Assembly (NCBI GenBank): GCA_050744245.1
Contig: JBOGGX010000027.1
Span: 1-54,725, forward strand
Direction of reading: 5' to 3'
Length of the DNA stretch: 54,725 bases
From: Acidimicrobiales bacterium
GTDB lineage: Bacteria > Actinomycetota > Acidimicrobiia > Acidimicrobiales > JBOGGX01
In this document: positions 7,298 to 53,905 of the stretch, in pieces
How the letters are laid out: each line of letters starts with the position of its first letter
Numbering within the stretch: the first letter of the stretch is position 1
Position numbers and translations under genes: made by a program
Notes under the pieces: generated by a model
Database searches by the model: none
The model's input: the letters and a program-made list of their open reading frames with translations, nothing else
Told to the model about the DNA's origin: nothing

Positions 7298-8523
7298 ATG
7301 GCCGTCCCCCACCTCAGGGTCGCGGTGGTCGGCTGCGGCACCGGGGGCCCGGCCGCGGCCCGATTCCTCGGCCGGCTCGGCCACGAGGTCACGGTGTTCG
7401 AGCGGTTTCCCGACCCGCAGCCCGTCGGGGCCGGCATCCTGCTGCAGCCCACCGGCCAGGGCGTGCTGCGCCGGCTCGGGCTGTTCGACCGGGTGGCGGC
7501 CGGCAGCTCGGTGATCGACCGGGTCTACGCCGTCTCCCACCGGGGCCGGCCGGTCATGGACTTCGGCTACGGCGACGTGACGCCCGGTCAGCACGCCCTC
7601 GGGGTCCACCGCGGTCTCCTGTTCCACACCCTCGTCGATGGCCTCGGCATCGCTCCCGAGATCGAGCTCAGGCTCGGCGTCGAGGTCACGGTGGCCGCGG
7701 GGAATCGTCCAGGTGCTGGCTGGGCGACGTGGCCGGCCGGCGGCACGGCCCGTTCGATCTCGTGGTGGCGGCCGATGGCGCCCGCTCGCAGGTCCGACGG
7801 TCGACCGACCTGGTCCGTCGGGACAAGGAGCATCCATGGGGCGCGATCTGGGCCATCGTCGACGACACCCGTGATCGACACTCCACAGTGCTCTATCAAC
7901 ACTACCGGGGCACCAGGGTCACGTTCGGGCTGCTGCCGACCGGATCGGCCGCCGACGGGCCGCGGCGCGTGTCGTTGTACTGGTCGGTCGAGAACCGCAG
8001 GGTCGACGAGCTCGACCGGCGCGGGCTCGACGGGTTCAAGGACGAGATCCGGCGCCTGACGCCCGAAGGCGACGAGGTGCTCGATCAGATCACCGAACCC
8101 GGCCAGCTGGTCCACGCCGAGTACCGCGACGTGGTGCTGCGGCGACTCCATGCCGACGACCGGCTGGTGTTCGTCGGCGACGCGGCCCATGCCATGAGCC
8201 CGCAGCTGGGCCAGGGCGCCAACCTCGCCCTGCTCGACGCGGCGGCGCTGGCCGATGCGATCGAAGGGGCGGCCGACCTGCGCGCCGCGCTGGCCGCGTA
8301 CCAGGCCGCCCGGCGGGCCCACGTGTGGTTCTACACCTGGATGAGCCGGATGATGACGCCGCTCTTCCAGTCGAACCTGGTGTTCCTCGGCCCGCCCAGG
8401 GACCTGCTCCTCGAACCGGTGTCACGCCCCCGCATGGTGCGGCGGTTGATGGTCGAGCTGCTCGCCGGCCGGGTCCTCGCCGGTGGAAGCTTCAGGCGAC
8501 GACCCACGGGTGGTCGTGGGTGA
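7298..8523 (+). pseudogene. FAD-dependent monooxygenase (UbiH/VisC-type fold) with a broken reading frame
   Basis: The N-terminal part, in the frame of ORF 7298, reads VAVVGCGTGGPAAARFLGRLGHEVTVFER (GxGxxG). The C-terminal part, in the frame of ORF 7240, reads FDLVVAADGARSQVR ... FVGDAAHAMSPQLGQGANLALLDA. The frame must change at about 7685-7715; a GGGG run sits at 7699-7702. Confidence 0.7.
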
Positions 8524-9781
8524 AGGTCCTGAAGATGTCGGCCTGGGTCAGCGGCCCGTACGTGCGGTGGTCGAGGGCAGAATCGCGCCGCAGCCCCTGC
8601 AGGTCGTCCGGGCTGAACCGGCACGGCACCGTCGTCGGCTCGACGCCGTAGAGCCTGGCCGCGTTCCCCCCGAGGATCTTCGCCTTCACGTCGGGGGTGA
8701 GCGCGGGATAGCCGAACTGGTCCTGGAACTGCTCGGTGATCTCGAACGCCCTGAACGCCTGGATCTGGTCCTGGGGCGAGCCGTACCAGATCGAGTCGGT
8801 CCCCCAGAGCACGTTGTCGGCCCCGAACGCGGCGAGCAGCTTGCCGAGGAGATGGGCCGCCTCGTCGGGCGAGCCCATCACGCTGCGCCACGTCGAGCCG
8901 AGCTCGGCGTAGACATTGCCGCCGGGCCCGATGCCGGCGTCCTGCGCGCTGCGCACCAGCCGGTCGACGCCTTGGCCGTCCGGGTCGTACGGCCCCTCGG
9001 CGACGCCGCTCTCGAAGCCGGAGTGGTACACGAGGAACTGGATCCCGGGGTGGTTGACCGCGGCCGGGCCGATGTCGACGGGTGAGGCGAACGTCGCGCC
9101 CCCTGACAGTCCCTTGTGGACGGCGACGACCGGCACACCGATCTCCTCGACCTTCTCGAGGAAGGCGTCGCCCACCGGCAACCCTTCCGGGTCGCGGTCG
9201 TCGAAGAACCAGCCGTTGGGCGAGTGGGTGTACACCTTCCACGCCGCGATCGGATGGGTCGACGCGATCTGCTGCATCTGGAGCAGGGCGGCCTCGACCG
9301 GTCCGACGTCGGGGACGGCGTGGCCCTGTATCAGCACCCGCCCGTCGTCGCACAACTCGTTGGCCGTGCGGAGGGCCTGGGCCATGATCTCGATCGAGAG
9401 GGGGTCGGCCTCGCCCACGACCGGAATGGCCGAGATCACGGCCATGGTCGTGTCGCTGCGGAGGAAGACCTCCTCCATCCAGTGCTCGACGCTGAAGCAG
9501 TCGCGCGCATCGGCCTCGCCGCAGCCGGCCTGGGGGAAGCCGGCGCCGAAGAAGTTCGACGACGGCGGGATGGCGTCGAACTCGAGGAAGTGGGTCTGGA
9601 CGTCGAAGACGAACTCAGGTGTTCCGAGCGCCTCCTCGGCCACCGTCGGTTCGGTGGTGGCTTCGGGCGGGACGGTGATCCGGCCGCCCTCGCCGCCCCC
9701 GGACTCGCGCGAGCAGGCGGCCAGGGCGAACAGCCCGGTGGCCGCGCCGGCCGCCGAGAGCAGGAACTCGCGCCGGCTCAT
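8492..9781 (-). CDS. Amidohydrolase-family metal-dependent hydrolase with Tat signal and lipobox
   Basis: Tail of ORF 8492..10243. MSRREFLLSAAGAATGLFALAACS has a twin-arginine motif plus an LAAC lipobox. An amidohydrolase_2-like body follows (FVFDVQTHF..., VAVHKG, LWGTDSIWYG). ATG 9853 is an alternative start. Confidence 0.75.
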   Translation of the reverse strand: MSRREFLLSAAGAATGLFALAACSRESGGGEGGRITVPPEATTEPTVAEEALGTPEFVFDVQTHFLEFDAIPPSSNFFGAGFPQAGCGEADARDCFSVEHWMEEVFLRSDTTMAVISAIPVVGEADPLSIEIMAQALRTANELCDDGRVLIQGHAVPDVGPVEAALLQMQQIASTHPIAAWKVYTHSPNGWFFDDRDPEGLPVGDAFLEKVEEIGVPVVAVHKGLSGGATFASPVDIGPAAVNHPGIQFLVYHSGFESGVAEGPYDPDGQGVDRLVRSAQDAGIGPGGNVYAELGSTWRSVMGSPDEAAHLLGKLLAAFGADNVLWGTDSIWYGSPQDQIQAFRAFEITEQFQDQFGYPALTPDVKAKILGGNAARLYGVEPTTVPCRFSPDDLQGLRRDSALDHRTYGPLTQADIFRTFTHDHPWVVA

Positions 9782-9971
9782 GCCGATCCGCCGGGCGTTG
9801 TCGTCGCTCAGGCGCCGGGCCCGGCGCATCGCCTGACGGGCGACCTCGCTCATCGGCCTGGGGACGTACTCGCCGTTCGAGCAGGGCTGGAGCTTGATCG
9901 GCAGCCCTGGGTCCCGCTCCCGGTCGTCCCGCAACGACATCGCCCGCAGCGTAGGACGGCACAATGGCCCC

Positions 9972-10382
9972 ATGGACATCACCAAGGCGCAGGAGTTCCT
10001 GCGACAGCACCACCGTGCGTTGTTGGCCACCCGCCGGCGCGACGGCTCGCCCCAGATGTCGCCCGTGCTCGCCGTCGTCGACGCCGAGGGCCGGGCGGCG
10101 GTGAGCAGCCGGGAAACCGCGATCAAGACCAAGAACATCAGGCGCGACCCCAGGGTGTCGCTGTGCGTGGTCGCCGACGGCTGGTACGGCGAGTGGATCC
10201 AGGTCGACGGCACGGCCGAGGTCGTCTCGCTGCCCGAGGCCATGGAGCCGCTCGTCGACTACTACCGCCGGGACGCGGGCGAGCACCCCGACTGGGACGA
10301 GTACCGGACCGCCATGGAGCAGGAGCGCCGGGTGCTGCTGCGGGTCGCGATCGAGCGGGCCGGCCCCGACCGCTCGGGCTAG
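9972..10382 (+). CDS. PPOX-class (pyridoxamine 5'-phosphate oxidase-like / F420-binding) split-barrel protein
   Basis: MDITKAQEFLRQHHRALLATRRRDGSPQMSPV...RDPRVSLCV...WIQVDGTAEV. Start is ATG 9972 inside ORF 9894..10382. Confidence 0.75.
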   Translation: MDITKAQEFLRQHHRALLATRRRDGSPQMSPVLAVVDAEGRAAVSSRETAIKTKNIRRDPRVSLCVVADGWYGEWIQVDGTAEVVSLPEAMEPLVDYYRRDAGEHPDWDEYRTAMEQERRVLLRVAIERAGPDRSG

Positions 10383-10387
10383 CGCAA

Positions 10388-17498: not shown

Positions 17499-17552
17499 CG
17501 GATGCTGCCTCCTTGCGTGATTTCGGCCACCGTTTCGGGTAGACGTGCGGGG

Positions 17553-18014
17553 GTGCGCGCCATCTGGAGCGGCTGCGTCAGCTTCGGCCTCGTGAACCTA
17601 CCGGTCAAGCTGTACCGGGCCACCGCCCCGCAGACCGTCCGATTCCACCAGCTCGATCGCCGATCGGGCGCCAGGGTCCGCAACAGAAGAGTCTCGGAGA
17701 AGAGCGGACGCGAGGTGCCGTACGAGCAGATCGTGAAAGGCTACGAGCTGGACGGCGATCAATTCGTGATCGTCGAGCCGGACGAGCTCGAAACCATCGA
17801 ACCGTACGGACCGTACGGACCCAAGGTGATCGGCATCGAGGAGGTCGTCCACCTCGACGAGATCGATCCGCGTCAGTTCGACCGGGCCTACTGGCTGGCC
17901 CCGGCGGACGAGCGAGCATCTGACCGCAATCAGGCGCTCGACCACGCGCTGGCGATCCACACCATGCTCTTCGCGACGAGTTGGTCGCCCAGGCCGAGCA
18001 GGAGCACCGCGTGA
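17553..18014 (+). pseudogene. ku: Ku (NHEJ DNA-end-binding protein) remnant
   Basis: GTG 17553 opens VRAIWSGCVSFGLVNLPVKLYRATAPQTVRFHQLD...FDRAYWLAPAD, a canonical Ku N-terminus. The text then jumps to ...LAIHTMLFA(DELV, +1 frame) and stops at 18014. That leaves about 150 codons against roughly 250-320 for intact bacterial Ku. Confidence 0.7.
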
Positions 18015-18097
18015 GCGAGCGAAACGAGCGAGCGACGGGCCGGTGCGGGAGTGCCAGCGACCCTGGGGGCATGGCCACCAGCAGGAGCACCGCGTGA
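17997..18097 (+). repeat. Perfect 18-nt direct repeat (period 83 nt) at the Ku/LigD junction
   Basis: AGCAGGAGCACCGCGTGA occurs at 17997-18014 and again at 18080-18097. Copy 1 contains the Ku-remnant stop; copy 2 contains the LigD GTG start. Confidence 0.95.
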
Positions 18098-19158
18098 CCG
18101 ACCCAGGCCCGCCGCTCGAGCGCTACCACGCCAAGCGCGATTTCGCCCGCACGCCGGAGCCCTCGGGTGCCGAGCCGTCCGAGGCGCCGGAGGGGGCGCC
18201 CCGCTTCACCGTCCAGCAGCACGACGCCACCCGGCTGCACTGGGACCTCCGGCTCGAACGCGACGGCGTCCTCGCCTCGTGGGCGCTGCCGCGGTGCCTG
18301 CCGTTGCGCCCAGACGACAACCATCTGGCGGTCCACACCGAGGACCACCCGATCGAGTACCTGAGCTTCGAGGGCGACATCCCCGAGGGGGAGTACGGCG
18401 CCGGCCACATGTTCGTGTGGGACACCGGGTGGTACCAGACCGAGAAGTGGGAGCCGAAGAAGGCGGTCGTGGTGCTGCACGGCGAGCGGGCCCGAGGGCG
18501 CTATGCGCTGTTCGAGACCAGGGGCCGGGACTGGATCATCCACCGGATGGATCCGCCCGAGGACCCGACCCGCGAGCCGGTGCCGACCGATCTGCGCCCC
18601 ATGCTCGCCACGCCCGGTCCTGCGCCGGAGGACGACGCATGGGCCTGGGAGGTCGGTTGGTCCGGGCTGCGCACGATCATCGCCGCCTCCACCGGGGCGG
18701 TCGACCTGTTCGACGCGGACGGGCGCACCGTTTCGCAGGCGTTTCCCGAGGTGCGCAGGATCGGCCGGGCGCTCGGCTCGGTCGAGGTCGTGCTCGACTC
18801 GCTGCTCGTTCCCACGAACGGCGACCGGGCGTCGATCGATCGCCGTTTGGCGGCGGCCAGCGAAAGCGCCGTGCGCCGGCTGGCTCGCGACCAACCGGCC
18901 GCCGCCGTCCTCTTCGATGTGCTCTGGTTCGACGGCCATCCCATCCTCGAGGCGCCGTGGACCGACCGTCGGGAACAGCTCGAGGACCTCAAGCTGGACG
19001 GTCCGGCATGGCGCACCCCGTCGGCCCACCCCGGTGACGGCCAGGCGCTCCTGGCCGCAGCGCGCCTGCAGGGACTCGACGGCCTGATCGCCAAGCGCCT
19101 GGACTCCCCGTACCGGCCGGGCGAAGCGTCACCCGACTGGGTCGAGGTCACGCCCTAG
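18094..19158 (+). CDS. ligD: LigD-like protein: 3'-phosphoesterase (PE) domain plus a truncated, motif-degenerate ATP-dependent ligase domain (no POL, no OB)
   Basis: The PE domain looks intact: LERYHAKRDFARTPEP, FTVQQHDATRLHWDLRLE, HTEDHPIEY, GAGHMFVWDTG. In the ligase part, motif I reads WEVGWSGLR where E-x-K-x-D-G-x-R is expected. Motif III reads LDSLLV (expected LDGE..V). The motif V region reads DWVEVTP-stop (expected W.K.K). Confidence 0.75.
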   Translation: MTDPGPPLERYHAKRDFARTPEPSGAEPSEAPEGAPRFTVQQHDATRLHWDLRLERDGVLASWALPRCLPLRPDDNHLAVHTEDHPIEYLSFEGDIPEGEYGAGHMFVWDTGWYQTEKWEPKKAVVVLHGERARGRYALFETRGRDWIIHRMDPPEDPTREPVPTDLRPMLATPGPAPEDDAWAWEVGWSGLRTIIAASTGAVDLFDADGRTVSQAFPEVRRIGRALGSVEVVLDSLLVPTNGDRASIDRRLAAASESAVRRLARDQPAAAVLFDVLWFDGHPILEAPWTDRREQLEDLKLDGPAWRTPSAHPGDGQALLAAARLQGLDGLIAKRLDSPYRPGEASPDWVEVTP

Positions 19159-25111: not shown

Positions 25112-25215
25112 CGGGCCGGAGTTGTAGCAGATCCCGTCGATCCCCCGGCAGAAGTCACATCAACTCTGCGTCAACCGACGCAATCGCCGAGGCCGTGCGA
25201 GCGGACCGTTCGGGC

Positions 25216-25757
25216 ATGGTCGGCCACCGCATCACCGTCGCCCTCCTGTTCCTCACGATCCTCGCGCGGTCATCGAGTGGGCGCTCGAGCTCTTCGACCA
25301 AGCCGACCTTCCGCTCCCCGGCATCGACTTCGCCCATCACGAGTCGAGGCGTGACTGCAACGGCAAGCCCGGGTGGCACCTTCGCCGCGAAGCCCGATCC
25401 ACGATCGACATCTGCACCCCGCGCACCGACGAGGTCCTCGAGTTCCTCATCCTCCACGAACTGGGCCACGCGTGGGACAGCCACCACCTCGCCGGTCGCG
25501 AGCGGGCCGCCTTCCTGGATGTCCGCAGGCTGACCGACTGGTGGGGCTCTGACCCCGACCGCTGGCACCAGTACGGCGCCGAGCAGCCGGCCGAGGTCGT
25601 GGTCTGGGCGCTCATGGACCGGCCCATCCGGTCGTCGTACATCCCCGCGCCGTGCAACGAGTGCTCAAATCTCCTCGCCGGCTACCGCGCCCTGACCGGA
25701 CGGCCGCCGTTGCACGGCTACACCGACCTCTGCGGCTCGGGGTCGAGGTGGCCATGA
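25216..25757 (+). pseudogene. Small HExxH metalloprotease-like protein; signal/TM start and catalytic body lie in different frames
   Basis: The frame of ATG 25216 gives MVGHRITVALLFLTILAR (a TM/signal-like segment). The body runs to stop 25755-25757: ...IEWALELFDQADLPLPGIDFAHHES...EFLILHELGHAWDSHHL...YGAEQPAEVVVWALMD... It lies in another frame that is open from 25128 but has no ATG/GTG/TTG before codon about 140. The frame break is near 25260-25272. Confidence 0.5.
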
Positions 25758-26843: not shown

Positions 26844-26849
26844 ACCGGT

Positions 26850-29187: not shown

Positions 29188-29723
29188 GTGCGAACGCAGA
29201 TCGCATCTCCAGGCTGGGATCCACGGCGGAACCTGCGGGGTGACAGACGGCTGAGTGAGTTGGACGACGTCGAATCGATCGAACGCGCCATCGCCGCGCT
29301 CGAGGCGCAGCGACCATCGCTTGGCGACGACGTCGTCGACACGGCGACCGCGCCGTTGCGGGAGAAGCGGGCCACGCTCGTGGCCCGCATGACCGGTGAG
29401 CAGCGCAAGCTGGTCACCGTGGTTTCGAGGCCCGGGCCTTCTGGGTCGGGGCCTCGCCATGCTCCGAGCGTCTGGGACAGAACCGTGAAGTCGACCAGCT
29501 CGAAGGGCAGGCACGCGAGGGAGGGCTCCGGCCCGGCGACGTGTTGTTGACCTGCTGGCAGATCTTGGCCGAGGCCGGCGACCTGCGGGCGGCCGATGCC
29601 CTGGCGGCCGGGCCCGCCTACCTCGACGACTTCGCCGGCCGGATCGACGAGCCCGACCTGCGGTCCGGCTTCCTGCATGACGTCGCGGCCCACGCCGCCC
29701 TGGCCGCGGCCCGGAAGAGCTGA
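29188..29723 (+). pseudogene. Remnant of a large adenylate-cyclase/AAA-ATPase/TPR-type regulator (N- and C-terminal ends only)
   Basis: The N-terminal piece reads IERAIAALEAQRPSLGDDVVDTATAPLREKRATL...GEQRKLVTVV and breaks where the cyclase fold (VTVLFADxxGFT) should continue. The C-terminal piece is in another frame: ...GDVLLTCWQILAEAGDLRAADALAAGPAYLDDFAGRIDEPDLRSGFLHDVAAHAAL. That leaves about 170 codons against more than 1000 in the intact family. Confidence 0.5.
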
Positions 29724-31325: not shown

Positions 31326-31411
31326 TGCCAGCCGGACGGCGGCGAGGGATGCCTCCACGCTGGTCGACGGACCGGGCCCGTGGTTGGGTAGCGGCCGGGA
31401 AGGCGGATGCG

Positions 31412-32175
31412 ATGACGGGGATCGGGATGAGCGGGAGGCACGCGCCCGCCGATCGGGGGCTGGCGGCCCTCTCGATCGTCCTTCGGCGCGCCTGGCGGAC
31501 GCAGTGGCGGACGCTCGGCGTCCTGGCCCTCATGGTCGGCCTGACCGGTGGGCTGGCGGTCGCCGGGCTGGCCGGTGCTCGTCGGTCGGCGTCGAGCATC
31601 GATCGCTTCGGCGACGCGGCCAAGACGCTCGACGTGTTCGTCGCCGGCGACCTCGCCGCGCCCGAGCCCGCCGCGCTGAATGAGCTCCTCGATGGTCCGC
31701 TGGTTGAGAGCTACAACGACCTGGTCTTCCTGTTCGTCCACACCGAAACGGTCGGGTTCTTCTTTGCGGCCACCTCACGGCGAGGCCTCGACGTCGAGCA
31801 GGGGGTGCTGCTCGGTCGGCGAGCCAGCTGGTGCGGCTGATCGACGGGCCCGAGGCGGTCGACGAGTTCACCGACGCCGTCGCCGAGGCCTACGGAGGCG
31901 AACACCTCCCGAGCATCAACGTCGGTCAGGGCGAGGAGTCCGTCCGCGACTCGATCTCGGTCGTTACCGGAGCGGCCGTCCTGCTCTACGACGAACAGGT
32001 CACGTTCAACGGCGTCGAGGCCATCACCATGACACGCGACCCGTGAAGAGCGCCATCGCGCCCACCATCATCGAGGGCCGCGAGCCGCGGGCCCCGACGA
32101 GATCGCCGTGGGCCGCGACACCCTCGTCGCCGTCGCCGTGCCCCTCGGCACGACCGTGAGCGTCGGCTCCAGGAG
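31412..32175 (+). pseudogene. FtsX/MacB-like ABC permease, fragmented 5' remnant
   Basis: Frame a reads LRRAWRTQWRTLGVLALMVGLTGGLAVAGLAGARRSASSIDRF (typical N-terminus plus TM1) and stops at 31840. Frame b (31831-32046) and frame c ([29 protein letters not shown]) carry further extracytoplasmic-domain-like pieces. No FtsX TM bundle follows. Confidence 0.5.
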
Positions 32176-32178
32176 CAA

Positions 32179-32682
32179 GACGAACCGGCGGACGCCGTCG
32201 GAGTGGCGTCCGTCGAAGTTGACGGCGCTGCCCCACAGCGTCCGATGGACGTCGCTGAGGTAGGGACCGAACTCCGCCAGATGGGCCCCATCCGGGCCCA
32301 GGTGGTTGTAGACGACGTCGAGCACGACGCCCAGCCGCCGCCGATGGCACGCGGCGACCAGCCGCTTGAGCCCGGCCGGACCGCCGTAGCCATCGTGCGG
32401 GGTGAACAGGTCGACGCCGTCGTAGCCCCATCCCCGGTCGCCCGGGAATTGCGCCACCGGCATGATCTCGACCGCGTCGACGCCGAGGTCGACCACCCGC
32501 GACGGGCCGTGGACGCCATGTGGTTGCCATGGGGACCGCGAGGCGATGGTCGGTCCCCTCGCCCGCGTCGTCGACGTGGATCGTCCACCAGCCCCGATAG
32601 TCGTCCTGGCTCATCGGTACCACGCGGCCGAGGGCCTCGACCCTCGCGCGCTCGGCCCCGGGCGACCACAGGCGGAACCGGG

Positions 32683-32686
<4 letters not shown>
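32179..32686 (-). pseudogene. treZ: Malto-oligosyltrehalose trehalohydrolase remnant
   Basis: The GTG at 32686 overlaps the glgX stop (GTGA) and opens [49 protein letters not shown]. After a frame change the text reads [13 protein letters not shown] joined directly to [28 protein letters not shown]...[12 protein letters not shown]...[14 protein letters not shown]. Homology ends at about 32179. About 170 codons are recognisable against roughly 580 in intact TreZ. Confidence 0.7.
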
Positions 32687-34808
<2,122 letters not shown>

Positions 34809-34809
<1 letters not shown>

Positions 34810-39834: not shown

Positions 39835-39854
39835 GACGGGTAGCGTACGGATCG

Positions 39855-41889: not shown

Positions 41890-41900
41890 CGGGCGCCCGT

Positions 41901-42295
41901 TCAGGTCCGAGCCGTCGACCCGTCGCGGCGGGCGGCGCCGGCCCTGGCCTCGGCGGAGGGGAGGTCGGCGGCGAAGTCGTCGAACCCGGCGACACCGGCG
42001 TACACGACGGACACGTTGGCATGGTCCAGGGCGATCGGCTCCTCGCCCTCGGTAAGGCCGGGCGACCGGTTCGGGCATCATCGTGAGGAGCAGCCGTTCG
42101 TTCTCGCTCTGTTGCTCATCTATCAGGTCGGCCTTGGTGCGCAGGCTCTGGCTCATGTCGTTGAAGGCCTTCCCGAGGTCGTCGAACTCCGCCGTCCTGC
42201 TCGGTTCGACCTTGACGTCCAGATCGCCGGCGGCGACCTGGCCAACGGCGCACGCCCCGCGGGCGTTGGCGATCGTCGAGGCCGGGGCCGCGTGG
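41901..42295 (-). pseudogene. HAMP-domain adenylate/guanylate cyclase remnant (no sensor/TM part, catalytic domain cut after about 40 aa)
   Basis: The minus frame reads ...STIANARGACAVGQVAAGDLDVKVEPSRTAEFDDLGKAFNDMSQSLRTKADLIDEQQSENERLLLTMMPEPVAR (HAMP plus linker). After a frame break near 42055-42064 it reads LTEGEEPIALDHANVSVVYAGVAGFDDFAADLPSAEA and then ends. Confidence 0.55.
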
Positions 42296-42323
42296 TGACG
42301 GGCAGCGGTAGTGTCGCCGGCGC

Positions 42324-44733: not shown

Positions 44734-44742
44734 GGCGAGGGC

Positions 44743-45234: not shown

Positions 45235-45312
45235 AAGTCAACACCTCGGGCGGGAGACGGTCCATCGCCGAGGAGATCGCATCCATGCGCCAGCGTCCAG
45301 ACGCGGCCGGCC

Positions 45313-46176: not shown

Positions 46177-46210
46177 TTTCTCGCTCCTCTGCTCGGTTTC
46201 GGGTTGGCGT

Positions 46211-46867
46211 TCATTCGGAACCAGCTCGTCGGGTCGAGGGCGGGATGGTGCGGTTGAAGCGGAAGCGGTTGTCCGGGTCGAAGCGGTCGTTGAGCTCGAC
46301 CAGGCGCTTCCAGTCCTCGGCCGAGTAGGCCGCCCGCACCCGCTCGGCGGTGGCGCCGTCGAGGTCCACAATGTTGAGGAAGGTGGTGCCGCGGGAGCTG
46401 GAATCCCGGCAGGCCGGCGAGCCCGTGGGGCGAAGCCTTGGCGGTGACGTCCGCCCACCTTGCTCCCGCATCGACGCGTGAGGTGCGCGCCTCTGGGTCG
46501 ATGTGGACGCCGTTCATACGCGAGGTGTTGATGAGGACGCCACCGGCGCACGGCGCCGCCGTCCCGTGACCGGTTGCCATCACTCGCCAAGACCCTCGTC
46601 CCGGGCGAAACGCACCGCGTCGAGAACGTCGGCCGGGCGCTCGGCCACGACCACCAGGGCCAGCCGGTGGCGTGCGTTGAGGTTCCACGTCGCATGCGCC
46701 TCGGCGTAGCCCTCGTCGACCGGCCGCAGCCGCGCACCCGACGGGCGGGCGCGCACCACGCGCACCGCGGCCACCGCCGCAGGGTCGACGTCTTGGTCGC
46801 TCACCGTCAGCAATACTCCTCGTCCGGCATAGCGGGCGACCGTCGCGCCGCCGGCCGATGGGGTCAT
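46211..46867 (-). pseudogene. FAD-linked (BBE/PCMH-type) oxidase remnant with frame break and large internal deletion
   Basis: Three pieces lie in two reading frames on the minus strand (the first and third share a frame). First, GYAEAHATWNLNARHR.ALVVVAERPADVLDAVRFARDEGL. Second, VMATGHGTAAPCAGGVLINTSRMNGVHIDPEARTSRVDAGARWADVTAKASPHGLAGLPG. Third, the C-terminal BBE tail FLNIVDLDGATAERVRAAYSAEDWKRLVELNDRFDPDNRFRFNRTIPP. About 200 codons remain against roughly 450 expected. Confidence 0.6.
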
Positions 46868-46926
46868 CCGTACCGAGTACTGATCTGCGGTTGACGACTC
46901 GAACTGGTGTTCGATAGAGTAGCGGG

Positions 46927-48203
46927 ATGGGTTTCGCTCCCGCTCCCGAGGCAGTTCGCCGTGAGGACGATGTGGCCGCGGTCGAGGAGCGGGTCGCGTC
47001 GTTGATGGGGGTGATCAACTCGGCGACGGCGCAGCTGGTCGAGGTGATCGCCGGGGTGGAGCGGACCGGGGCCTGGGAGGGGTGGGGGGTCCGCTCGTTG
47101 GAGCATTGGGTGACGTGGCGGTGCGGGGTGTCGGCCGCCCGGGCCCACCGGCTGGTGGCGATGGCTCGGGCGTTGCCCGGCCTGCCGGCGGTGCAGCAGG
47201 TGTTCGGCGCCGGGTCCCTGTCAGAGGACCAGGCCGCGGTCGTGGCCCGCCACGCCACGGCGGCCACCGACGCCACGGTGGCCGAGATGGCCCCGTTCCT
47301 GACCGTGCCCCAGTTGGGGCGGGTGGTGGCCTCGATCCCTCAACCCCCACCCGACCCTGTGGTCGAGGTCGACCAGGAAGCCCAACCGGACAACACGCTG
47401 GTTGAGCGGCGCCGGGTGAGCTTCGGTCACCGCGACGACGGCACCTGGTGGTTGCGGGCCCTGCTGCCCCCCGATGTGGGGGCGATGGTCGAACAGGCGT
47501 TGGCCGCGGGTCGCGACGCCGAGTTCCGGGATGGGGGGCCCGACCGCGAGCGGGTGTCGTGGGCCGACGGTCTGGTCCGGTTGGCCGAGACCGGGTTGGG
47601 GGCCCTCGAACGGGGCGATGACGAGGGCGACCGGGTCCGGCCGGGTGGGGGCGGTTCGAAGTGCTGGTCCATGTCGACGCCGACCGGGTCACCCCCACGG
47701 CATTGCATCTGGGGCCGTTGCTGCCGGCCGGGATCGGCCATCTGGTCACCTGTGACGCCACCGTGCGGGCCGTGATCGAACGGCTAGGTCGACCGGTGGG
47801 GTTGGGTCGGCGGCGGCGCACCGTGCCCCGCCGGGTGCGGGCCCTGGTCGAACGGCGCGACGGCGGGTGCCGCATCCCCGGCTGTGGCCGCCGTCACCGG
47901 CTCCACATCCATCACCTGGTTCACTGGGCCGCCGGGGGCGCCACCGACCTCGACAACCTGCTCGCGTTGTGTCCGGCCCACCACCGCCTCGTCCATCTGG
48001 GTCGGCTGGTGATCAGCGGCGACCCGACCCGGCCCGACGGCCTCGAGTTCACCGACCAGGACGGCCGGCGGCTCACCCCGGCCCGGGCCAGACCCACCCA
48101 CGGGCCCCCCGTCGACGCCGCCCGCCGGCTCGGCGACCCCACCCCCCGCTACCAGAACCCGACCGGCGAACCCCTCCAAACTTGGGCCATCGTCTGGAAC
48201 TGA
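46927..48203 (+). pseudogene. DUF222 / HNH endonuclease (13E12-repeat-type, mobile-element-like) with a frame break
   Basis: The DUF222 part, in the frame of ORF 46927, reads SLEHWVTWRCGVSAARAHRLVAMARAL.... The HNH part, in the frame of ORF 47661, reads RFEVLVHVDADRV...RALVERRDGGCRIPGCG...HIHHLVHWAAGGATDLDNLLALCPAHHRLVH. The break coincides with the GGGGG run at 47647-47651. Confidence 0.8.
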
Positions 48204-48235
48204 CGCGGCCAATGGTGCGCGGGCGACACTGAGCG

Positions 48236-48400
48236 TCAGGTCGCGCCCGGCGTGATGTTGTAGTTCATCCGGAAGAAATTCTCCGGGTCGTACTGCGCCT
48301 TGACCCGGCCCAGCCTGGCGTACTTCCAGGGTCCGCCGAAGGCATCGACGACCCGGGCCATCTCGTCGAAGTTGAGCATGTTGCGGTCGACGCGGATGTG
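48236..48400 (-). pseudogene. C-terminal BBE-domain fragment of a second FAD-linked oxidase
   Basis: Only the tail MLNFDEMARVVDAFGGPWKYARLGRVKAQYDPENFFRMNYNITPGAT is recognisable. The upstream frame is not protein-like. Confidence 0.5.
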
Positions 48401-48573
48401 GCTGCTGTCCGCCGCCTGCGAGGCCCACCTGGCCGCGCGAGCCGCCGGAACGGTCCATCCGCTCACGGCCGAGGAGATCGCGTCCTGGCGGGCCGTCGCC
48501 GACGAGCTCCTGCCTCGGCTGTGGGACCACCTACGCCGCCGCGTCGAGCATCCGTGACCCCAACGAGCCTGCG

Positions 48574-49401: not shown

Positions 49402-49808
49402 GCGCCCGCGCCCGGCTGGGCGATCGCGCATCCAACTGAGTCTTCGCCGTCCTGGATGACGCCGCCGGTGTCACGAGCCCAGGACACGCCCCATTCGTAG
49501 AGCGCGTCGACGAGAGGCTCGAGGCGGGCGCGCTCGCCTTCGGCGATGGCGTAGTCGACTCGCGGGGGCACCTGCTCGTAGACGGTGCGGACGATGACAC
49601 CGTCGGCTTCGAGCTCCCGCAGCTGCTGGGTGAGCATCTTTTGCGAGACGGTGGGCAGCAGGCGGCGCAGCTCGCCGTTGCGACGAGGTGCCTGCAGCAA
49701 GAAGTAGGCGATGAGCAGCTTCCACTTTCCGCCGAGGACGGTGAGTGGGACGTCAACCGGACAGAGATAGCTGTGCTCCTGTTGGCGTGCCGTCACTTGC
49801 ACGCACAT
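49398..49808 (-). CDS. HxlR-family winged-helix transcriptional regulator
   Basis: CPVDVPLTVLGGKWKLLIAYFLL..PRRNGELRRLLPTVSQKMLTQQLRELEADGVIVRTVYEQVPPRVDYAI. ATG 49808. Confidence 0.85.
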   Translation of the reverse strand: MCVQVTARQQEHSYLCPVDVPLTVLGGKWKLLIAYFLLQAPRRNGELRRLLPTVSQKMLTQQLRELEADGVIVRTVYEQVPPRVDYAIAEGERARLEPLVDALYEWGVSWARDTGGVIQDGEDSVGCAIAQPGAGA

Positions 49809-50072
49809 CCACGCCTCCCGAAGTCCCCGAACCTTGGTTACCAGAAAGTGCGTACTAGTCCTACGGACCTGTATAGGTTCATATGTCACCTCAATGGAGT
49901 CAAGGATTGAGGCCATCGAGGTCGACGCGTTGATCGTTGCCCCCGACCTCGGCGGGCGACCGGCCGAGCTTGCGATCGACCTCGGCTTCCGGCACGACAT
50001 CATCCGCGACACCGCGTCGTTCGTGTACGGCCCCGCGGGCGGGCGTGTCACCAACCGAGGGAGCGCACGCCC

Positions 50073-50474
50073 ATGACGCCACGCGTCGATCGCATCGAGG
50101 GCAGGGTCATGCCGGTCAACGCCTCCATCGTGCACGGGCCCGAAGGGCTCGTCGTGATCGACGGGATGCTCACCGTCTCCGACGCGGCGCTCGTCCGCCA
50201 CGCCATCACGGACACCGGCGAAAGACTCACGGGAGTCGTCATCACCCACCCCCATCCCGACCGCTACGCCGGTCTCGCGCACGTCGTCGACCAGGACGAC
50301 GTTCCCATCGTCGCGACCGGCGCAGTGGACCAGATCATCCGACGCGACGACGCGATCAAGGACGAGATCGTCGGTCCCATGATGGGCGACGAGTGGCCCA
50401 CGACCCGGATCTTCCCCAACCAAGTCGTGCACGGCGGCGACGAGCTACGTCTCGGTGGCATCACGCGCCGGTAG
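50073..50474 (+). pseudogene. MBL-fold metallo-hydrolase, 3'-truncated
   Basis: VNASIVHGPEGLVVIDG...VVITHPHPDRYAG (an HxHxDH-type motif) is present. The protein ends at 133 aa (ELRLGGITRR-stop), well short of the later metal ligands. Confidence 0.55.
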
Positions 50475-50875
50475 CCCCTCCGCACCACGAAGCAGGTCAC
50501 CGCCCACACGCCGTCGTCGTCCTCGTCCTCGTCCCGGCCGCTCCACGGGACGCGAGAGGTGCGCAGCTTGGGGTACGCCGTCCGCGGCTCGACCGCGACC
50601 CAGCCCGCCGGCTCGCCGTCGACATAGGCCACCAGCCCGCTGGTGGTCTCGGCGTTCGGGTCGCCGCAGGCGGTCTGGGCTTCGAGCATCGCCGTCCGCT
50701 GCTCCTGGGTGGAGTCACGCCAGATCCAACCGACGACCTTGAACCGCTGGCACTGGCACCGGCCGGGATAGTCGGTGGTGCCGAAGATCGCGGCGAGGTC
50801 CTTGCACGACGCCTCGTTGGCCGGGAAGATTGTCAGCTGCTCGGCCCGGATCGGTGCCGGGATCGCCGTCGTCAC
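50466..50875 (-). pseudogene. GNAT-family N-acetyltransferase, 3'-truncated
   Basis: The GTG at 50875 overlaps the DinB stop (GTGA). The text reads ...GRCQCQRFKVVGWIW...GLVAYVDGEPAGWVAVEPR...WAVTCFVVRRGYRR. The frame then runs into antisense MBL sequence instead of the acetyl-CoA-binding R/Q-x-x-G-x-G/A segment. Confidence 0.55.
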
Positions 50876-51429
50876 GGCTGGGGCGGGTCCTCTCCCACCA
50901 GACCGTCGACGGCCTCGCGGAAGAGGTCGGCGTGGCCGACGTGGCGGGCGTACTCGTCGTGCAGGTCGACCAGCGCCCGCCTGAGGTTGGGCGCCTCTCC
51001 GGAGTCGGTGGTGAACCTCGAGGGCTGGTCGAGCCCCCCGTCGGCGAGCGCCGCGACCCACGCGGCGCGAGATCGCTCCACGGCCGCGCGCCAGAGCGCG
51101 TAGAGCTCCTCGGGGGTGTCGTCGGCCGCCGAGTGCCATTCCCAGTCGGGATCGGCGTCGAAGTCGGCCTGCTTCCACGGCCCGGCCCATTGGCCGGTGA
51201 CGAAAACGGCTGTCTGCTTGTCCTCGACGAGCGCCATGTGCTTGAGCAGGCCGCCGATCGTCATCGCCGACGGAGGGTGCGCCTTCCTCAGGGCGGCGGC
51301 GTCGAGGCCGCCGCACTTCCAGGCGAACTGCGCCCGTGACCGTTCCAGCGCGAAGAGCAGCAGGTCGACCTCGGTGCCGGCCAGGGGCGGTTCTTGAATG
51401 GTGGTGTCCAGTTCGGTATCGTCGCTCAT
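50872..51429 (-). CDS. DinB-superfamily protein (DUF664 / mycothiol-transferase-like)
   Basis: LLLFALERSRAQFAWKCGGLD...TIGGLLKHMALVEDK and LHDEYARHVGHADLFREAVDG are present. Confidence 0.8.
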   Translation of the reverse strand: MSDDTELDTTIQEPPLAGTEVDLLLFALERSRAQFAWKCGGLDAAALRKAHPPSAMTIGGLLKHMALVEDKQTAVFVTGQWAGPWKQADFDADPDWEWHSAADDTPEELYALWRAAVERSRAAWVAALADGGLDQPSRFTTDSGEAPNLRRALVDLHDEYARHVGHADLFREAVDGLVGEDPPQP

Positions 51430-51485
51430 GCGCGGGCACGTTAGGGTTCATTCCGGACGTTCTACTTCCGGAATGGCGCGATGCG

Positions 51486-52369
51486 GTGATATCCGACGCG
51501 AGCCCCACGGCCCGGGCCCTGCTGGCCCTCGAACTGGTCGAGAGCAGCCCGGGCATCACCGCGGACCGAATCGCCGACAAGCTCGGCGTCTCTGAGCGGG
51601 CCGCCCGGCGGTACGTCGGCATCCTCCGCGAGGCCGGCATCCCCATCGAGTCGGTCCGCGGGCGGTATGGCGGCTACCACGTCGGCCGCGGCCTCCGGCT
51701 CCCGACGCGGTCGGCAGTGCGCTCGGCAAGATCATGCGGGCGCTCCCCGAGCCGGTGGCCGCCCAGGCCGATGCCGTTCGTCGGACCGCGGCGCCCGCCC
51801 CCGACCGCGCCGCGGCCCGGCCCGACCCCGAGACCACGACCACCCTCGTGCAGGCCTGCTCGAACCATCGACGGGTCCGCCTCGGCTACCGCTCCGAAGC
51901 CGGGCCGGAGTGGGTCATCGAGGTCGACCCGTGGGCGGTCGTCGTACGCCACGGCCGGTGGTACCTGCTGTGCGGGTCCCACACCTCGGACGCTCGGCGG
52001 GCCTACCGGATCGACCGGGTCCGCGGCGTCGAGGTGCTCCACGACACCTTCAGCCCACCCGCCGACCTCGACCCGGTCGCCGCGCTCGAGGAGCACCTCG
52101 CCGTCGGATGGGAGTACGACGTCGAGATCATCGTCGACGCGCCCGTCAACACCGTGGCCCGTTGCCTCCCCCGCACCATCGGACGTCTCGAGCCCCTCGA
52201 TGCCGAAGCGACCCGCCTGGTCGGCAGCACCAGCAGCCCGGTCTGGTACGCCGAGCAACTCGCGGCCATCCCGGCGTCGTACCGGATCGTGAGGTGCCCC
52301 GAGCTCCAGGAGGCCGCACGCGTCCTCGGGCAGCGGCTGCTGGCGGCGGGTGGGAGCACACATCGCTGA
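51486..52369 (+). pseudogene. HTH-WYL-WCX (YafY/PafBC-like) transcriptional regulator with an internal out-of-frame deletion
   Basis: The HTH part reads ARALLALELVESSPGITADRIADKLGVSERAARRYVGILREAGIPIESVRGRYGGYHVGRGLRLP. The frame then changes near 51695-51705 to DAVGSALGKIMRALPEPV.... The WYL core follows: RRVRLGYRSEAGPEWVIEVDPWAVVVRHGRWYLLCG...RAYRIDRV. About 30 residues expected after LRLPP are absent. Confidence 0.65.
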
Positions 52370-52813
52370 CCTGGTGCACGCGTCCGTCGGGAAGCTCACG
52401 GGCGAGGTCCATGCTGAGAAGGTCGTCACGGCCGTCACGCGCGGCACCGTCGACCCGCGTTGGCGCGACATCATGGACGTCGTCCGCTGGCAGCGCACCA
52501 CGCGATTGACGGCGACGACCTCGTCGCGTCTGTGCGCAAGGTGGCTCGACACCGTGGAGTCGATCTGCTCTCCCTCGATGACGTCCTCGATGGGTTCGGC
52601 GAGATCGGCCAGCAGCGATGGCCGGGCTGGCGGCGAAGGCAGCATGTTGAGGACCGCACTCCCGATCTGTTCGAGCTCTCGCGCGTGGAGGTAGCCGCCC
52701 CCAAGCACCTCGAGCGATGCTCGCACGGCGCCGACGAGGAGCCGGGACTACCAGACTCGCATGACGCGCCGACCAGCCCAGCTCCATTGGTTCGCTGACC
52801 GGCCGGCCCGCGC

Positions 52814-53149
52814 TCATTCGTCGACGAGGAACCGCGCCTCGATCGACTGCGCGCCCATGTAGTCATCGCCCGTCAGGTCGAGGAGCACGTCGAGGTACTC
52901 GATGCCCACGTCGTCGATCATGTCCTCGATCTCATCGTCGGCAACCACTGCGGCGTCGTAGAGCACCCGACCCTCGAGCGCGATGACGCGCAGGATCCGG
53001 AGCGTCGGCACCCAGTCCGCGCGGCGATGTGCCTCGCGCGCCGATCGGTACGCCTCGATCAGGTCGGCACTTGGCATCGCGAACCCCCGGTCAGCGGACA
53101 GTCCGACGGTAGGTCGAGTCGACGTCGTCGCAGTGGCTTGCGAGCTCAC
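52814..53149 (-). CDS. Small acidic hypothetical protein
   Basis: Probably starts at ATG 53077: MPSADLIEAYRSAREAHRRADWVPTLRILRVIALEGRVLYDAAVVADDEIEDMIDDVGIEYLDVLLDLTGDDY... Coding-like GC3. No known motif. Confidence 0.4.
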   Translation of the reverse strand: MSSQATATTSTRPTVGLSADRGFAMPSADLIEAYRSAREAHRRADWVPTLRILRVIALEGRVLYDAAVVADDEIEDMIDDVGIEYLDVLLDLTGDDYMGAQSIEARFLVDE

Positions 53150-53174
53150 GTTCGATCGGGTGAGCTCTTGACCG

Positions 53175-53600
53175 GTGAGCTTTCCGAGCTGGTGCTACTA
53201 CCCGACGTCGACCGCGCCGCCGGAGTGGGCCCAAGGCCTCGTGACTGTTGTCAGCGCAGCTCGGTCAGACATCGAGTCAGCCTCGAACAGCGGGCTGACG
53301 AGCGACAAGGTGCTCCTCAAGCTCCGGCCAGGGCTCGAGGCGCTCGGCTACACCGTCGAGGCCAGCAAGAAGCGCGCTGACAAGGTGCGCCGGCCGGTGC
53401 TCTTCGGTGAGAGCGGGTCCGAGCGCGTTGCCTATGAAGTGGACGCGGTGCACGACGAACTCGGGGTCCTTCTAGAGGTCGAAGCTGGCCGGGGCGCGAT
53501 GGGCAACGCCGTGTACCGCGATCTCATTCGAACGTCGCTCATCGTCGGCGCACTGCGACCGCAAGCTCGCCAATTACCGCGCCCTGCTCGACCACCATGA
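53175..53600 (+). pseudogene. PD-(D/E)xK (restriction-endonuclease-like) fragment, 3' end replaced
   Basis: ...LRPGLEALGYTVEASKKRADKVRRPVLFGESGSERVAYEVDAVHDELGVLLEVEAGRGAMGNAVYRDLIRTSLIV fits a D...E-x-E nuclease-core pattern. After about 53545 the frame carries recombinase-derived DNA read out of frame. Confidence 0.4.
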
Positions 53601-53905
53601 CGCCGTGACCGTCGCCGCCCCTGGATCGCCGACACCCAACGCGAGCACAAGAACCACGAACGGCAACTCGGCCAGCACGTCCCCGGCGACCGGCTCACCC
53701 CGAACAGGTCAAGGCCCTCGTCAACGCTCTCCGAGACATCGTCAGCGTCCTCGCCGAGGCCCAACCGGCCTCCAAGGCCGAGCTGGTCGTACAGCTCGGC
53801 ATCTCAGTCGCCTACGACCCAGACGGGACCGTCACCGTCGAGTCGCACCACCGTGGGGTACAAGTACGTGTCGGAGGGGGACTTGAACTCGTGCCGGCGG
53901 CGTGA
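53554..53905 (+). pseudogene. C-terminal tail of a large serine recombinase (remnant, two frame breaks)
   Basis: The text CDRKLANYRALLDHHDAVTVAA / PWIADTQREHKNHERQLGQHVPGDRLTP / EQVKALVNALRDIVSVLAEAQPASKAELVVQLGISVAYDPDGTVTVES is read across three frames. The breaks fall at the CCCC runs 53618-53621 and 53698-53701. This matches the conserved tail of actinobacterial large serine recombinases. Confidence 0.55.

What the first reader, a model, noticed from the sequence alone, without database searches (positions are those of the whole stretch)
7298..53905. About a quarter of the gene-sized units are remnants, and many junctions fuse two truncated genes
Reading every frame against remembered family architectures, I count about 16-18 disrupted units among about 60:
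- FAD monooxygenase (7298-8523)
- Ku (17553-18014) and LigD (18094-19158)
- HExxH protein (25216-25757)
- cyclase/ATPase/TPR regulator (29188-29723)
- FtsX permease (31412-32175) and treZ (32179-32686)
- SGNH lipoprotein (39274-39559)
- HAMP-cyclase (41901-42295)
- two BBE oxidases (46211-46867 and 48236-48400)
- DUF222-HNH (46927-48203)
- MBL (50073-50474) and GNAT (50466-50875)
- WYL regulator (51486-52369)
- PD-(D/E)xK fragment and serine-recombinase tail (53175-53905)

There are two classes of lesion. Class (a) is single frame breaks, several lying at short homopolymers: GGGG 7699-7702, GGGGG 47647-47651, CCCC 53618-53621 and CCCC 53698-53701.

Class (b) is large deletions where two truncated genes abut with essentially no spacer:
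- FtsX|treZ, convergent, about 32175
- MBL|GNAT, convergent, about 50466
- BBE|unknown, head to head, about 48400
- nuclease|recombinase, about 53550
- Ku|LigD-PE, 18014-18094

If class (b) is real, it is the footprint of strong deletional decay in a GC-rich actinobacterium that still keeps large intact housekeeping genes. Alternatively it is an assembly artefact. Either answer matters for any use of this sequence.
Basis: partly seen in the sequence, partly recalled or inferred. Interest (0 to 1): 0.7.

Follow-up and report, generated by a model that had tools for sequence, protein, structure and literature searches.

The report
Real gene remnants left by deletions
About a quarter of the genes in this stretch of an uncultured high-GC actinobacterium are genuine broken leftovers, eroded by repeated deletions and small frame slips and not by assembly error, which is a clear but ordinary example of how bacteria dispose of genes they no longer need.

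Summary
Of 58 gene-sized units, 15 are verifiably disrupted (26%) and 3 more plausibly so.

Alignment to profiles, solved structures and full-length homologues shows what survives:
- FtsX permease: five collinear pieces of an ~830-aa protein.
- Cyclase/ATPase/TPR regulator: aa 1-55 plus 1111-1175 of ~1190.
- BBE oxidase 1: aa 10-76 plus 415-467 of 468.
- TreZ: aa ~7-57 plus ~129-234 of ~580.
- Ku: its N-terminal half only.
- LigD: no OB fold or polymerase domain.
- Serine recombinase: its last 116 aa, in three frames.

Assembly artefact is rejected for all lesions but one. A separate NCBI MAG (GCA_975375135.1) covers every lesion. It differs from the window by 17 SNPs, and the 14 in intact genes are mostly synonymous. 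Logan contigs of run SRR27067772 cover several lesions. Both carry the same lesions. Only the DUF222-HNH frameshift (G5 versus G6 at 47647-47651) is private to the window.

One-base frameshifts are about 20-fold denser in already truncated genes than elsewhere. This is ordinary deletion-biased pseudogene erosion. What is notable is its local density, in a lineage most likely Acidimicrobiia.

The parts
7298..8523 (+). FAD-dependent monooxygenase pseudogene. One -1 frameshift at GGGG 7699-7702; both halves are present.
   Evidence: FAD_binding_3 3-77 and 151-343 of 349 lie in two frames. Junction reading. The same break is in the MAG, which carries a further private +1 (extra C) at window 8165.
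17502..18014 (+). Ku remnant: N-terminal half only.
   Evidence: Ku domain 1-116 of 190. Residues 17-142 of a 295-aa solved Ku. The identical 170-aa ORF is in the MAG and in a Logan contig.
18043..19158 (+). LigD remnant: complete 3'-phosphoesterase domain plus ligase nucleotidyltransferase subdomain. The OB fold and polymerase domain are absent.
   Evidence: LigD_N 1-106 of 107 and DNA_ligase_A_M 19-201 of 204. 1VS0 residues 8-186 of 310.
25195..25757 (+). HExxH-motif secreted protein, disrupted. The signal anchor (25195-~25265) is in one frame and the complete ~155-aa domain (25263-25757) in another, with about 25 linker codons missing.
   Evidence: 1083 homologues, typically ~200 aa, matching from their residue ~45 onward. 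tblastn and frame reading. No gene was called here in the Logan contig.
29260..29723 (+). Adenylate cyclase/ATPase/TPR regulator remnant: aa 1-55 and 1111-1175 of ~1190, implying an internal deletion of ~3.2 kb.
   Evidence: Homologues P0063-P0079 mapped by tblastn to 29260-29424 and 29490-29684.
31326..32178 (+). FtsX-like ABC permease remnant in five collinear pieces. Internal deletions of 283 and 699 bp, two one-base frameshifts (~32040, ~32085), and 3' truncation.
   Evidence: tblastn of ~800-833-aa homologues. blastn against relative L167 gives blocks 31326-31825, 31814-31974 and 31972-32178. Imperfect ~12-bp direct repeat at the first junction.
32176..32689 (-). TreZ remnant: aa ~7-57 and ~129-234 of ~580. 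It abuts the FtsX remnant tail to tail at 32176-32179.
   Evidence: CBM_48 10-61 of 83 and Alpha-amylase 30-95 of 446. tblastn of TreZ from related loci. The identical junction is in MAG contig CDIKJD010000138.1.
39274..39559 (-). Probable SGNH lipoprotein remnant: a lipobox signal peptide followed by stop codons, then a C-terminal ~70 aa with a DGIH motif in another frame.
   Evidence: Frame reading only. No Pfam or homologue hit. Unverified.
41901..42297 (-). HAMP-adenylate cyclase remnant: part of HAMP plus the first ~40 aa of the cyclase domain, with a +1 frameshift at ~42052. Both gene ends are missing, and it is wedged between two intact genes.
   Evidence: HAMP 17-53 of 53. Weak match to adenylate cyclase 4P2F residues 29-99. 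Junction reading. In relative L174 the two flanking genes abut with no remnant.
46211..46867 (-). BBE/FAD-linked oxidase remnant 1: aa ~10-76 and ~415-467 of ~468, implying an internal deletion of ~1 kb.
   Evidence: BBE domain 2-45 of 45. Two-part match to EncM.
46927..48203 (+). DUF222-HNH endonuclease gene, frameshifted in the window only at GGGGG 47647-47651.
   Evidence: DUF222 6-182 in one frame, 233-306 plus HNH in another. The MAG has GGGGGG and an intact 425-aa gene.
48236..48409 (-). BBE oxidase remnant 2: C-terminal ~52 aa only.
   Evidence: BBE domain 4-44 of 45 at the end of the frame. The same ORF is in the MAG.
50073..50474 (+). Metallo-beta-lactamase-fold gene truncated at the 3' end.
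   Evidence: Lactamase_B 3-118 of 196, ending at the stop codon.
50465..50875 (-). GNAT acetyltransferase truncated at the 3' end within the acetyl-CoA motif. It abuts the MBL remnant tail to tail.
   Evidence: Acetyltransf_1 7-73 of 116. aa ~10-139 of 300-336-aa homologues. In syntenic relative L168 homology stops at window 50465 while the gene continues ~60 aa further.
51486..52369 (+). HTH-WYL regulator split by an 82-bp deletion at ~51705.
   Evidence: HTH_11 and WYL lie in different frames. blastn against L168 leaves 75 bp unaligned plus a 7-bp overlap, with a CGG microhomology.
53175..53552 (+). Nuclease-like module, probably truncated at the 3' end.
   Evidence: Matches aa 1-126 of a 334-aa protein, but it sits at other positions in other proteins. 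No Pfam hit. Partly supported.
53530..53905 (+). Large serine recombinase tail: aa 431-546 of 547 in three frames, with one-base shifts at CCCC 53618-53621 and 53698-53701.
   Evidence: Homologues P0231-P0254 mapped by tblastn to 53536-53619, 53622-53699 and 53702-53881.

Best explanation
These are genuine pseudogenes and gene remnants in the chromosome of an uncultured, 72% GC actinobacterium, most likely of the class Acidimicrobiia. Genes that stopped being needed were inactivated and are being removed piecemeal. The affected functions are NHEJ repair (Ku and LigD), TreZ, two adenylate cyclases, an FtsX permease, two BBE oxidases, an FAD monooxygenase, an MBL hydrolase, a GNAT, a WYL regulator, and the leftovers of an integrated element.

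Two mutational processes are visible:
- One-base slips, mostly at G or C runs of 4-6 bases.
- Deletions from ~75 bp to more than 3 kb, some flanked by short direct repeats.

Where a single deletion spanned the ends of two adjacent dispensable genes, it left two truncated genes abutting with no spacer. This explains FtsX|treZ, MBL|GNAT and nuclease|recombinase.

Shown here: the lesions, their reproducibility across assemblies, and intact or longer versions in relatives.

Inferred: relaxed selection, the slippage or microhomology mechanism, and the order of events.
For: **Coverage deficits**
These were measured against Pfam profiles, solved structures and full-length homologues.

**Multi-lesion collinear remnants**
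FtsX carries 5 lesions, TreZ 2, HAMP-cyclase 3, and the recombinase tail 3.

**Reproducibility**
- The same lesions occur in three contigs of MAG GCA_975375135.1. These contigs differ from the window by 17 SNPs.
- They also occur in Logan contigs of SRR27067772.
- The SNPs in intact genes are 10 synonymous to 4 nonsynonymous (P about 0.002 against a 30% synonymous expectation). The two sequences are therefore real, selected strain variants.
- Both indel differences between the assemblies lie in already disrupted or selfish genes.

**Distribution of frameshifts**
There are 5 one-base frameshifts in 5.7 kb of truncated units, against 2 in 44.5 kb of other coding sequence (P = 3e-4).

**Relatives**
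- L167 has the intact 833-aa FtsX gene.
- Syntenic L168 has an unsplit HTH-WYL gene and a longer GNAT.
- L174 has lost the HAMP-cyclase spacer entirely.

**Junctions and literature**
- Short direct repeats flank the FtsX and WYL deletion junctions.
- No repeats of 40 bp or more occur in the window.
- The pattern matches published descriptions of deletional bias and of microhomology-flanked deletions in bacterial pseudogenes (PMC2817411, PMC2916853, PMC6054270).
Against: - No reads were examined.
- The MAG and the Logan contigs may come from the same or related samples as the window, so independence is at the level of assembler and strain, not of study.
- GC3 of the remnants (length-weighted 0.905) is barely below that of intact genes (0.927). 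Substitutional decay is therefore slight and the lesions are not ancient.
- Three units (SGNH, nuclease-like, 54022-54525) rest on weak evidence.
- A crude control found 8% of 63 other high-GC loci with as many short coding-like fragments. The density is high but not unique, and some of those controls may themselves be error-prone long-read assemblies.
- Microhomology was inferred from relatives only 75-89% identical.
Confidence: 0.88

Rival explanations
1. Assembly or sequencing artefact. The frame breaks would be homopolymer miscalls, and the abutting truncated genes would be chimeric joins or collapsed strain variants.
For: - Four one-base shifts sit in G or C runs.
- The DUF222-HNH shift is absent from the MAG, which has G6 where the window has G5.
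- The MAG has its own private extra C at window 8165.
- The window and the MAG diverge completely after 54507.
Against: - All other lesions are identical in a MAG that differs by 17 mostly synonymous SNPs, and in Logan contigs.
- Frameshifts are about 20-fold enriched in already truncated genes, while 44.5 kb of other coding sequence, including a 4.5-kb gltB, carries only two.
- The window has no repeats that could cause mis-joins.
- Single remnants carry up to five collinear lesions.
Confidence: 0.05
2. The decay is local. The window would cover a flexible region or the wreck of an integrated mobile element, and it would say nothing about the genome as a whole.
For: - The last 9 kb holds element-type genes: DUF222-HNH, an ERCC4 nuclease, a serine recombinase tail, a nuclease-like module, and a possible transposase start at the window end.
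- The two strains diverge at 54507.
- Most decayed genes are accessory.
Against: - Lesions are spread from 7.3 kb to 54 kb.
- They are interleaved with core genes: gltB, gltD-like, lutABC, mtnA, ideR, glgX, treY, malic enzyme and rsgA.
- They include chromosomal functions such as Ku/LigD and TreZ.
Confidence: 0.45
3. Some of the truncated or split ORFs are still functional. Examples would be a phase-variable DUF222-HNH switch, or stand-alone Ku, PE-ligase or WYL fragments.
For: - The G5/G6 length polymorphism in DUF222-HNH.
- The LigD phosphoesterase domain is complete.
- Codon-position GC bias is retained in the remnants.
Against: - The cuts pass through catalytic or fold cores. Ku is halved. 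The ligase lacks its OB fold. The GNAT is cut in the acetyl-CoA motif. The MBL stops at profile position 118 of 196.
- Many pieces lack start codons.
- One strain adds a further frameshift to the FAD gene.
- A G5/G6 tract is short for a contingency locus.
Confidence: 0.07

Closest known systems
Deletion-biased pseudogene erosion in bacteria (Kuo & Ochman 2009, PMC2817411; Kuo & Ochman 2010, PMC2916853)
   Same: Inactivated genes are shortened by deletions that outnumber insertions. Remnants sit between intact genes and eventually vanish, as the HAMP-cyclase spacer has in relative L174.
   Different: Those studies rest on whole-genome comparisons of cultured species. Here the evidence is a single 55-kb window of an uncultured lineage with a locally very high density (26% of units), and no genome-wide figure.
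Microhomology-flanked deletions in pseudogene-rich genomes such as the leaf-nodule Candidatus Burkholderia (PMC6054270)
   Same: Deletions occur between short direct repeats (FtsX about 12 bp imperfect, WYL 3-5 bp). This happens in a genome where Ku and LigD are non-functional, as in 6 of 8 of those symbiont genomes.
   Different: That paper found almost no slippage at homopolymers. Here four of the five precisely placed one-base shifts are in G/C runs. Only three junctions could be examined here, and only against relatives 75-89% identical.
Reductive genome evolution with mass pseudogenisation (Mycobacterium leprae, Sodalis glossinidius; PMC7067036 for Sodalis)
   Same: The pseudogene fraction is in the tens of percent locally. 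A repair pathway has been lost. Core metabolism remains intact.
   Different: There is no evidence that the fraction holds genome-wide. No host association is known. IS expansion is not seen, apart from one possible transposase start at the window edge.

Membership tests
Bacterial pseudogene / gene remnant | Clear homology to a protein family, but with a substantial part of the family's length missing or the frame broken. | tested here: met
   15 units.
Bacterial pseudogene / gene remnant | The lesion is reproducible in independent sequence data. | tested here: met
   Identical in the MAG GCA_975375135.1 contigs and in Logan SRR27067772 contigs. The exception is the DUF222-HNH G5/G6 site.
Bacterial pseudogene / gene remnant | An intact counterpart exists in relatives, ideally at the same locus. 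| tested here: met
   - FtsX is intact in L167, though not syntenic.
- HTH-WYL is unsplit and GNAT is longer in syntenic L168.
- TreZ is intact next to glgX/treY in many loci.
- No syntenic relative was available for Ku/LigD, BBE or MBL.
Bacterial pseudogene / gene remnant | Relaxed selection on the remnant (dN/dS near 1, further lesions accumulating). | tested here: inconclusive
   Extra frameshifts are concentrated in truncated units, and there is a strain-private extra indel in the FAD gene. However, dN/dS was not computed, and GC3 is only slightly reduced.
Bacterial pseudogene / gene remnant | No functional product. | not testable with these tools
   This needs transcript or protein data.
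Assembly artefact (chimeric join or homopolymer miscall) | Not reproduced by other assemblies of the same organism. | tested here: not met
   All junctions are reproduced. Only 47647-47651 differs.
Assembly artefact (chimeric join or homopolymer miscall) | Repeat or shared sequence at the join that could mislead an assembler. | tested here: not met
   A self-blastn search of the window (E-value cut-off 1e-5) returned no non-self matches.
Assembly artefact (chimeric join or homopolymer miscall) | Indel errors scattered regardless of gene function. | tested here: not met
   5 one-base shifts in 5.7 kb of truncated units against 2 in 44.5 kb elsewhere, P = 3e-4.
Genome-wide reductive evolution (M. 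leprae type) | Pseudogenes make up a large fraction of the whole genome. | not testable with these tools
   Only this window and its copies could be retrieved. Locally the figures are 26% of units and 17.7% of bases.
Genome-wide reductive evolution (M. leprae type) | Loss of DNA repair or recombination functions. | tested here: met
   Ku and LigD are both remnants. Other repair genes were not surveyed.
Phase-variable contingency locus (DUF222-HNH) | Homopolymer tract within the ORF whose length varies between strains and switches the frame. | tested here: inconclusive
   G5 in the window against G6 in the MAG. The tract is short, only two sequences were compared, and sequencing error is not excluded.

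The most novel reading that the evidence does not exclude
The window may be a fair sample of the whole genome. In that case this uncultured Acidimicrobiia-like lineage would be in an early, genome-wide phase of reductive evolution. A fifth or more of its genes would be decaying, and it would have lost Ku-LigD end joining, so that breaks are now repaired by microhomology-mediated deletion. That would make it a rare high-GC, environmental counterpart of Mycobacterium leprae-type decay, caught while codon bias is still intact.
Probability: 0.2. Interest if true: 0.6.

Novelty: new member of a known kind. Interest (0 to 1): 0.33.

Why it matters
**For users of this sequence**
- The broken genes should be annotated as pseudogenes. 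They should not be 'repaired' and should not be counted as functions. This population most likely lacks NHEJ and the TreY-TreZ trehalose route, despite partial hits to both.
- The contig itself can be trusted, apart from one G5/G6 site and the last 218 bases.

**For genome evolution**
The window gives unusually legible snapshots of multi-step erosion: up to five lesions in one gene, single deletions that clip two neighbouring genes, and complete removal in a relative. All this is in a lineage with no cultured representative.

If the density proved genome-wide, it would be a notable case of ongoing genome reduction in a high-GC environmental actinobacterium.

Tried and rejected
**Searches that did not find a close relative**
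- Two scans of one-genome-per-species contigs, with GlgX and the AMP-binding enzyme, reached only 72-77% amino-acid identity. Synteny was limited to the glgX/treY/treZ genes, so no whole-window comparison was possible.
- The single metagenome scan gave one useful relative, L174.
- Exact-protein look-ups failed for GlgX, the AMP-binding enzyme and the second DUF222 ORF, because of single residue or start-codon differences.
- A literature search for the accession numbers found nothing.

**Units that stayed unresolved**
- Pfam found nothing for the FtsX pieces, the cyclase/TPR pieces, HExxH, SGNH, the nuclease-like module or the recombinase tail. All but SGNH were resolved by homologue searches with concatenated queries.
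- SGNH, the 87-aa ORF at 52814-53077 and the 92-aa ORF at 39556-39834 remain unresolved.

**Ideas considered and dropped**
- I first suspected a broken gltD at 1-1250. It is in fact three intact small genes: an anti-sigma factor, an ECF sigma factor and a globin.
- I suspected a truncated arginase-family gene at 22243-23022. Its length is normal against solved structures.
- I considered that DUF222-HNH had inserted into one BBE gene. This is rejected because both flanking BBE fragments are C-terminal ends.
- A GC3 test for old decay showed only a slight drop.

Full report
**What the window is**

The window is 54.7 kb at 68-73% GC with strong third-position GC bias. Its conserved proteins find their best matches at 71-77% amino-acid identity. 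These matches are in metagenome-assembled Actinomycetota, mostly Acidimicrobiia or Acidimicrobiales. I therefore infer that it comes from an uncultured lineage of that group with no close species representative.

I located coding stretches in all six frames with a codon log-likelihood segmentation trained on the long genes. I then scanned essentially every unit against Pfam.

**Inventory**

I count 58 gene-sized units, not counting one cut by the window edge. Forty look intact. They include:
- gltB (1520 aa)
- a gltD-like gene
- an M18 aminopeptidase
- ideR
- lutABC
- mtnA and a class II aldolase
- a Rieske oxygenase
- an AMP-binding enzyme
- glgX and treY
- an acyltransferase
- malic enzyme
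- rsgA

Fifteen units are verifiably disrupted (26% of units, 17.7% of bases). Three more are plausible.

**What is left of each disrupted gene**

| Unit | What survives |
|---|---|
| FAD monooxygenase | FAD_binding_3 positions 3-77 and 151-343 in two frames. The reading across 7699-7702 (GGGG) fits loss of one base. |
| Ku | Residues 17-142 of a 295-aa solved Ku |
| LigD | Complete phosphoesterase domain. The ligase part stops at residue 186 of the 310-residue M. tuberculosis ligase domain, so the OB fold is gone. No polymerase domain. |
| HExxH protein | Complete domain (homologues are ~200 aa and match from residue ~45). No in-frame start: the signal anchor is in another frame and about 25 linker codons are missing. 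|
| Cyclase/ATPase/TPR regulator | aa 1-55 and 1111-1175 of ~1190, an internal loss of ~3.2 kb |
| HAMP-cyclase | Part of HAMP and the first ~40 residues of the cyclase domain, with a +1 shift. Squeezed between two intact genes. |
| BBE-1 | EncM residues 10-76 and 415-467 of 468 |
| BBE-2 | A 52-aa C-terminal stub |
| MBL | Stops at profile position 118 of 196 |
| GNAT | Stops at 73 of 116, inside the acetyl-CoA motif |
| HTH-WYL regulator | 82 bp lost between its two domains |
| Serine recombinase | aa 431-546 of 547 in three frames. Residue numbering is continuous across shifts that fall exactly at CCCC 53618-53621 and 53698-53701. |

**The FtsX|treZ junction in detail**

Full-length FtsX-like permeases of 800-833 aa map onto the window as five collinear pieces. 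At the DNA level a relative with the intact gene (L167) aligns in three blocks: 31326-31825, 31814-31974 and 31972-32178.

From this alignment the window's copy has:
- lost 283 bp and 699 bp internally
- two one-base gaps
- no equivalent of the last 721 bp

TreZ on the other strand keeps residues ~7-57 and ~129-234 of ~580, and ends at 32176-32179. One deletion that removed the 3' ends of both convergent genes explains the spacer-free abutment.

The same logic fits two other junctions:
- MBL|GNAT at 50465-50474. The syntenic relative L168 loses homology exactly at 50465, while its GNAT runs about 60 residues further.
- Nuclease|recombinase at about 53530-53552.

**Real or artefact**

Exact-protein look-ups found the same region elsewhere:
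- Three contigs of an NCBI MAG (GCA_975375135.1), covering window 2423-23894, 27575-37866 and 37886-54507.
- Contigs that the Logan project assembled from run SRR27067772.

The MAG differs from the window by 17 SNPs and 2 one-base indels over about 47.5 kb. Of the 14 SNPs in intact genes, 10 are synonymous. That is the signature of real strain variation under purifying selection, not of consensus noise.

Every junction and every frame break is identical in the MAG, with one exception. DUF222-HNH is G5 in the window and G6 in the MAG, where the gene is an intact 425-aa ORF. The MAG in turn has a private extra C at window 8165, inside the already broken FAD gene.

Further points argue against artefact:
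- One-base frameshifts number 5 in the 5.7 kb of units classed as truncated on independent grounds, against 2 in 44.5 kb of other coding sequence (P = 3e-4).
- The window contains no internal repeats that could cause mis-joins.
- Single genes carry up to five collinear lesions.

Together these results reject the artefact reading for all but the 47647 site.

**Homopolymers**

G or C runs of 4 or more are common (9.25 per kb), so loose proximity to one means little. However, four of the five one-base shifts that can be placed to within a codon lie in such runs (P about 4e-4). This fits polymerase slippage as the mutational source. Because these shifts are shared between the two strains, it does not indicate sequencing error.

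**Mechanism and stage**

- Deletion junctions compared with relatives show short direct repeats: about 12 bp, imperfect, at the first FtsX deletion, and CGG at the WYL deletion. This is as reported for bacterial pseudogenes generally (PMC6054270).
- In relative L174 the kinase-like gene and the malic enzyme gene abut directly where the window keeps a 396-bp HAMP-cyclase remnant. This shows the end point of the process.
- Remnants keep nearly normal third-position GC, 0.905 against 0.927. Indels and deletions have therefore outrun substitutions, and the lesions are not ancient, although they predate the split of the two strains.
- From the missing portions I estimate that at least ~14 kb have been removed from this stretch.

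**How unusual**

The window has 2.2 short coding-like fragments per 10 kb, against a median of 0.6. Eight percent of the controls were as high.

The control is crude. The codon model was trained on the window, and some controls are long-read assemblies with their own frame errors (L168 shows several).

The phenomenon itself is deletion-biased erosion of pseudogenes, which is well established (PMC2817411, PMC2916853). What is new is the instance and its local density. Whether the density holds genome-wide could not be tested.

**Verdict**

The finding is a clear, useful, but conceptually ordinary example.

Noticed in passing
window 54507-54725: The window and MAG contig CDIKJD010000125.1 are collinear up to 54507 and unrelated after it. 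Homology to a 262-aa relative (P0230) stops at the same point, near its residue 184. The window's tail has lower GC and an 11-bp-stem hairpin at 54600-54640. It also holds an ORF start (MLRTVNDRPTTLWETVLPPECRGLPAELA) with a weak tblastn hit (E 0.6) under an 'ISNCY family transposase' annotation. This may be an insertion sequence or a strain-variable insertion point, and it may be why the contig ends here.
   Followed up: partly
window 24237-24308 (-): ARAGORN calls a tRNA-Ala (CGC) inside an intact class II aldolase ORF (24066-24698; Aldolase_II 3-179 of 183). This is probably a false positive.
   Followed up: partly
window 32683-37367 (-): GlgX (708 aa) and TreY (852 aa) are intact while TreZ next to them is a remnant. 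The gene order treY-glgX-treZ differs from the treY-treZ-glgX order in the closest related loci.
   Followed up: partly
window 39556-39834 (-): A 92-aa ORF matches only internal segments of much larger proteins: residues 86-183 of a 518-aa protein and 611-706 of an 822-aa protein. It may be a further remnant next to the SGNH one.
   Followed up: partly
window 8165: The MAG carries an extra C here (CCC where the window has CC), inside the already frameshifted FAD monooxygenase. One strain has therefore added a second lesion to the same pseudogene.
   Followed up: yes
L168 10100-11100 and L168 generally: The related ENA contig (ERZ25039565 contig_12417) reads its MST-GNAT region in three frames and has other oddly short genes, such as a 105-aa aromatic lyase. 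This suggests that assembly has its own indel errors or its own decay. It should be used with care as an 'intact' reference.
   Followed up: no
window 26300-27575 and 37866-37886: The MAG's contigs break at these positions while the window runs through them. A SNP at 37892 suggests strain variation is what fragments the short-read assembly there.
   Followed up: no
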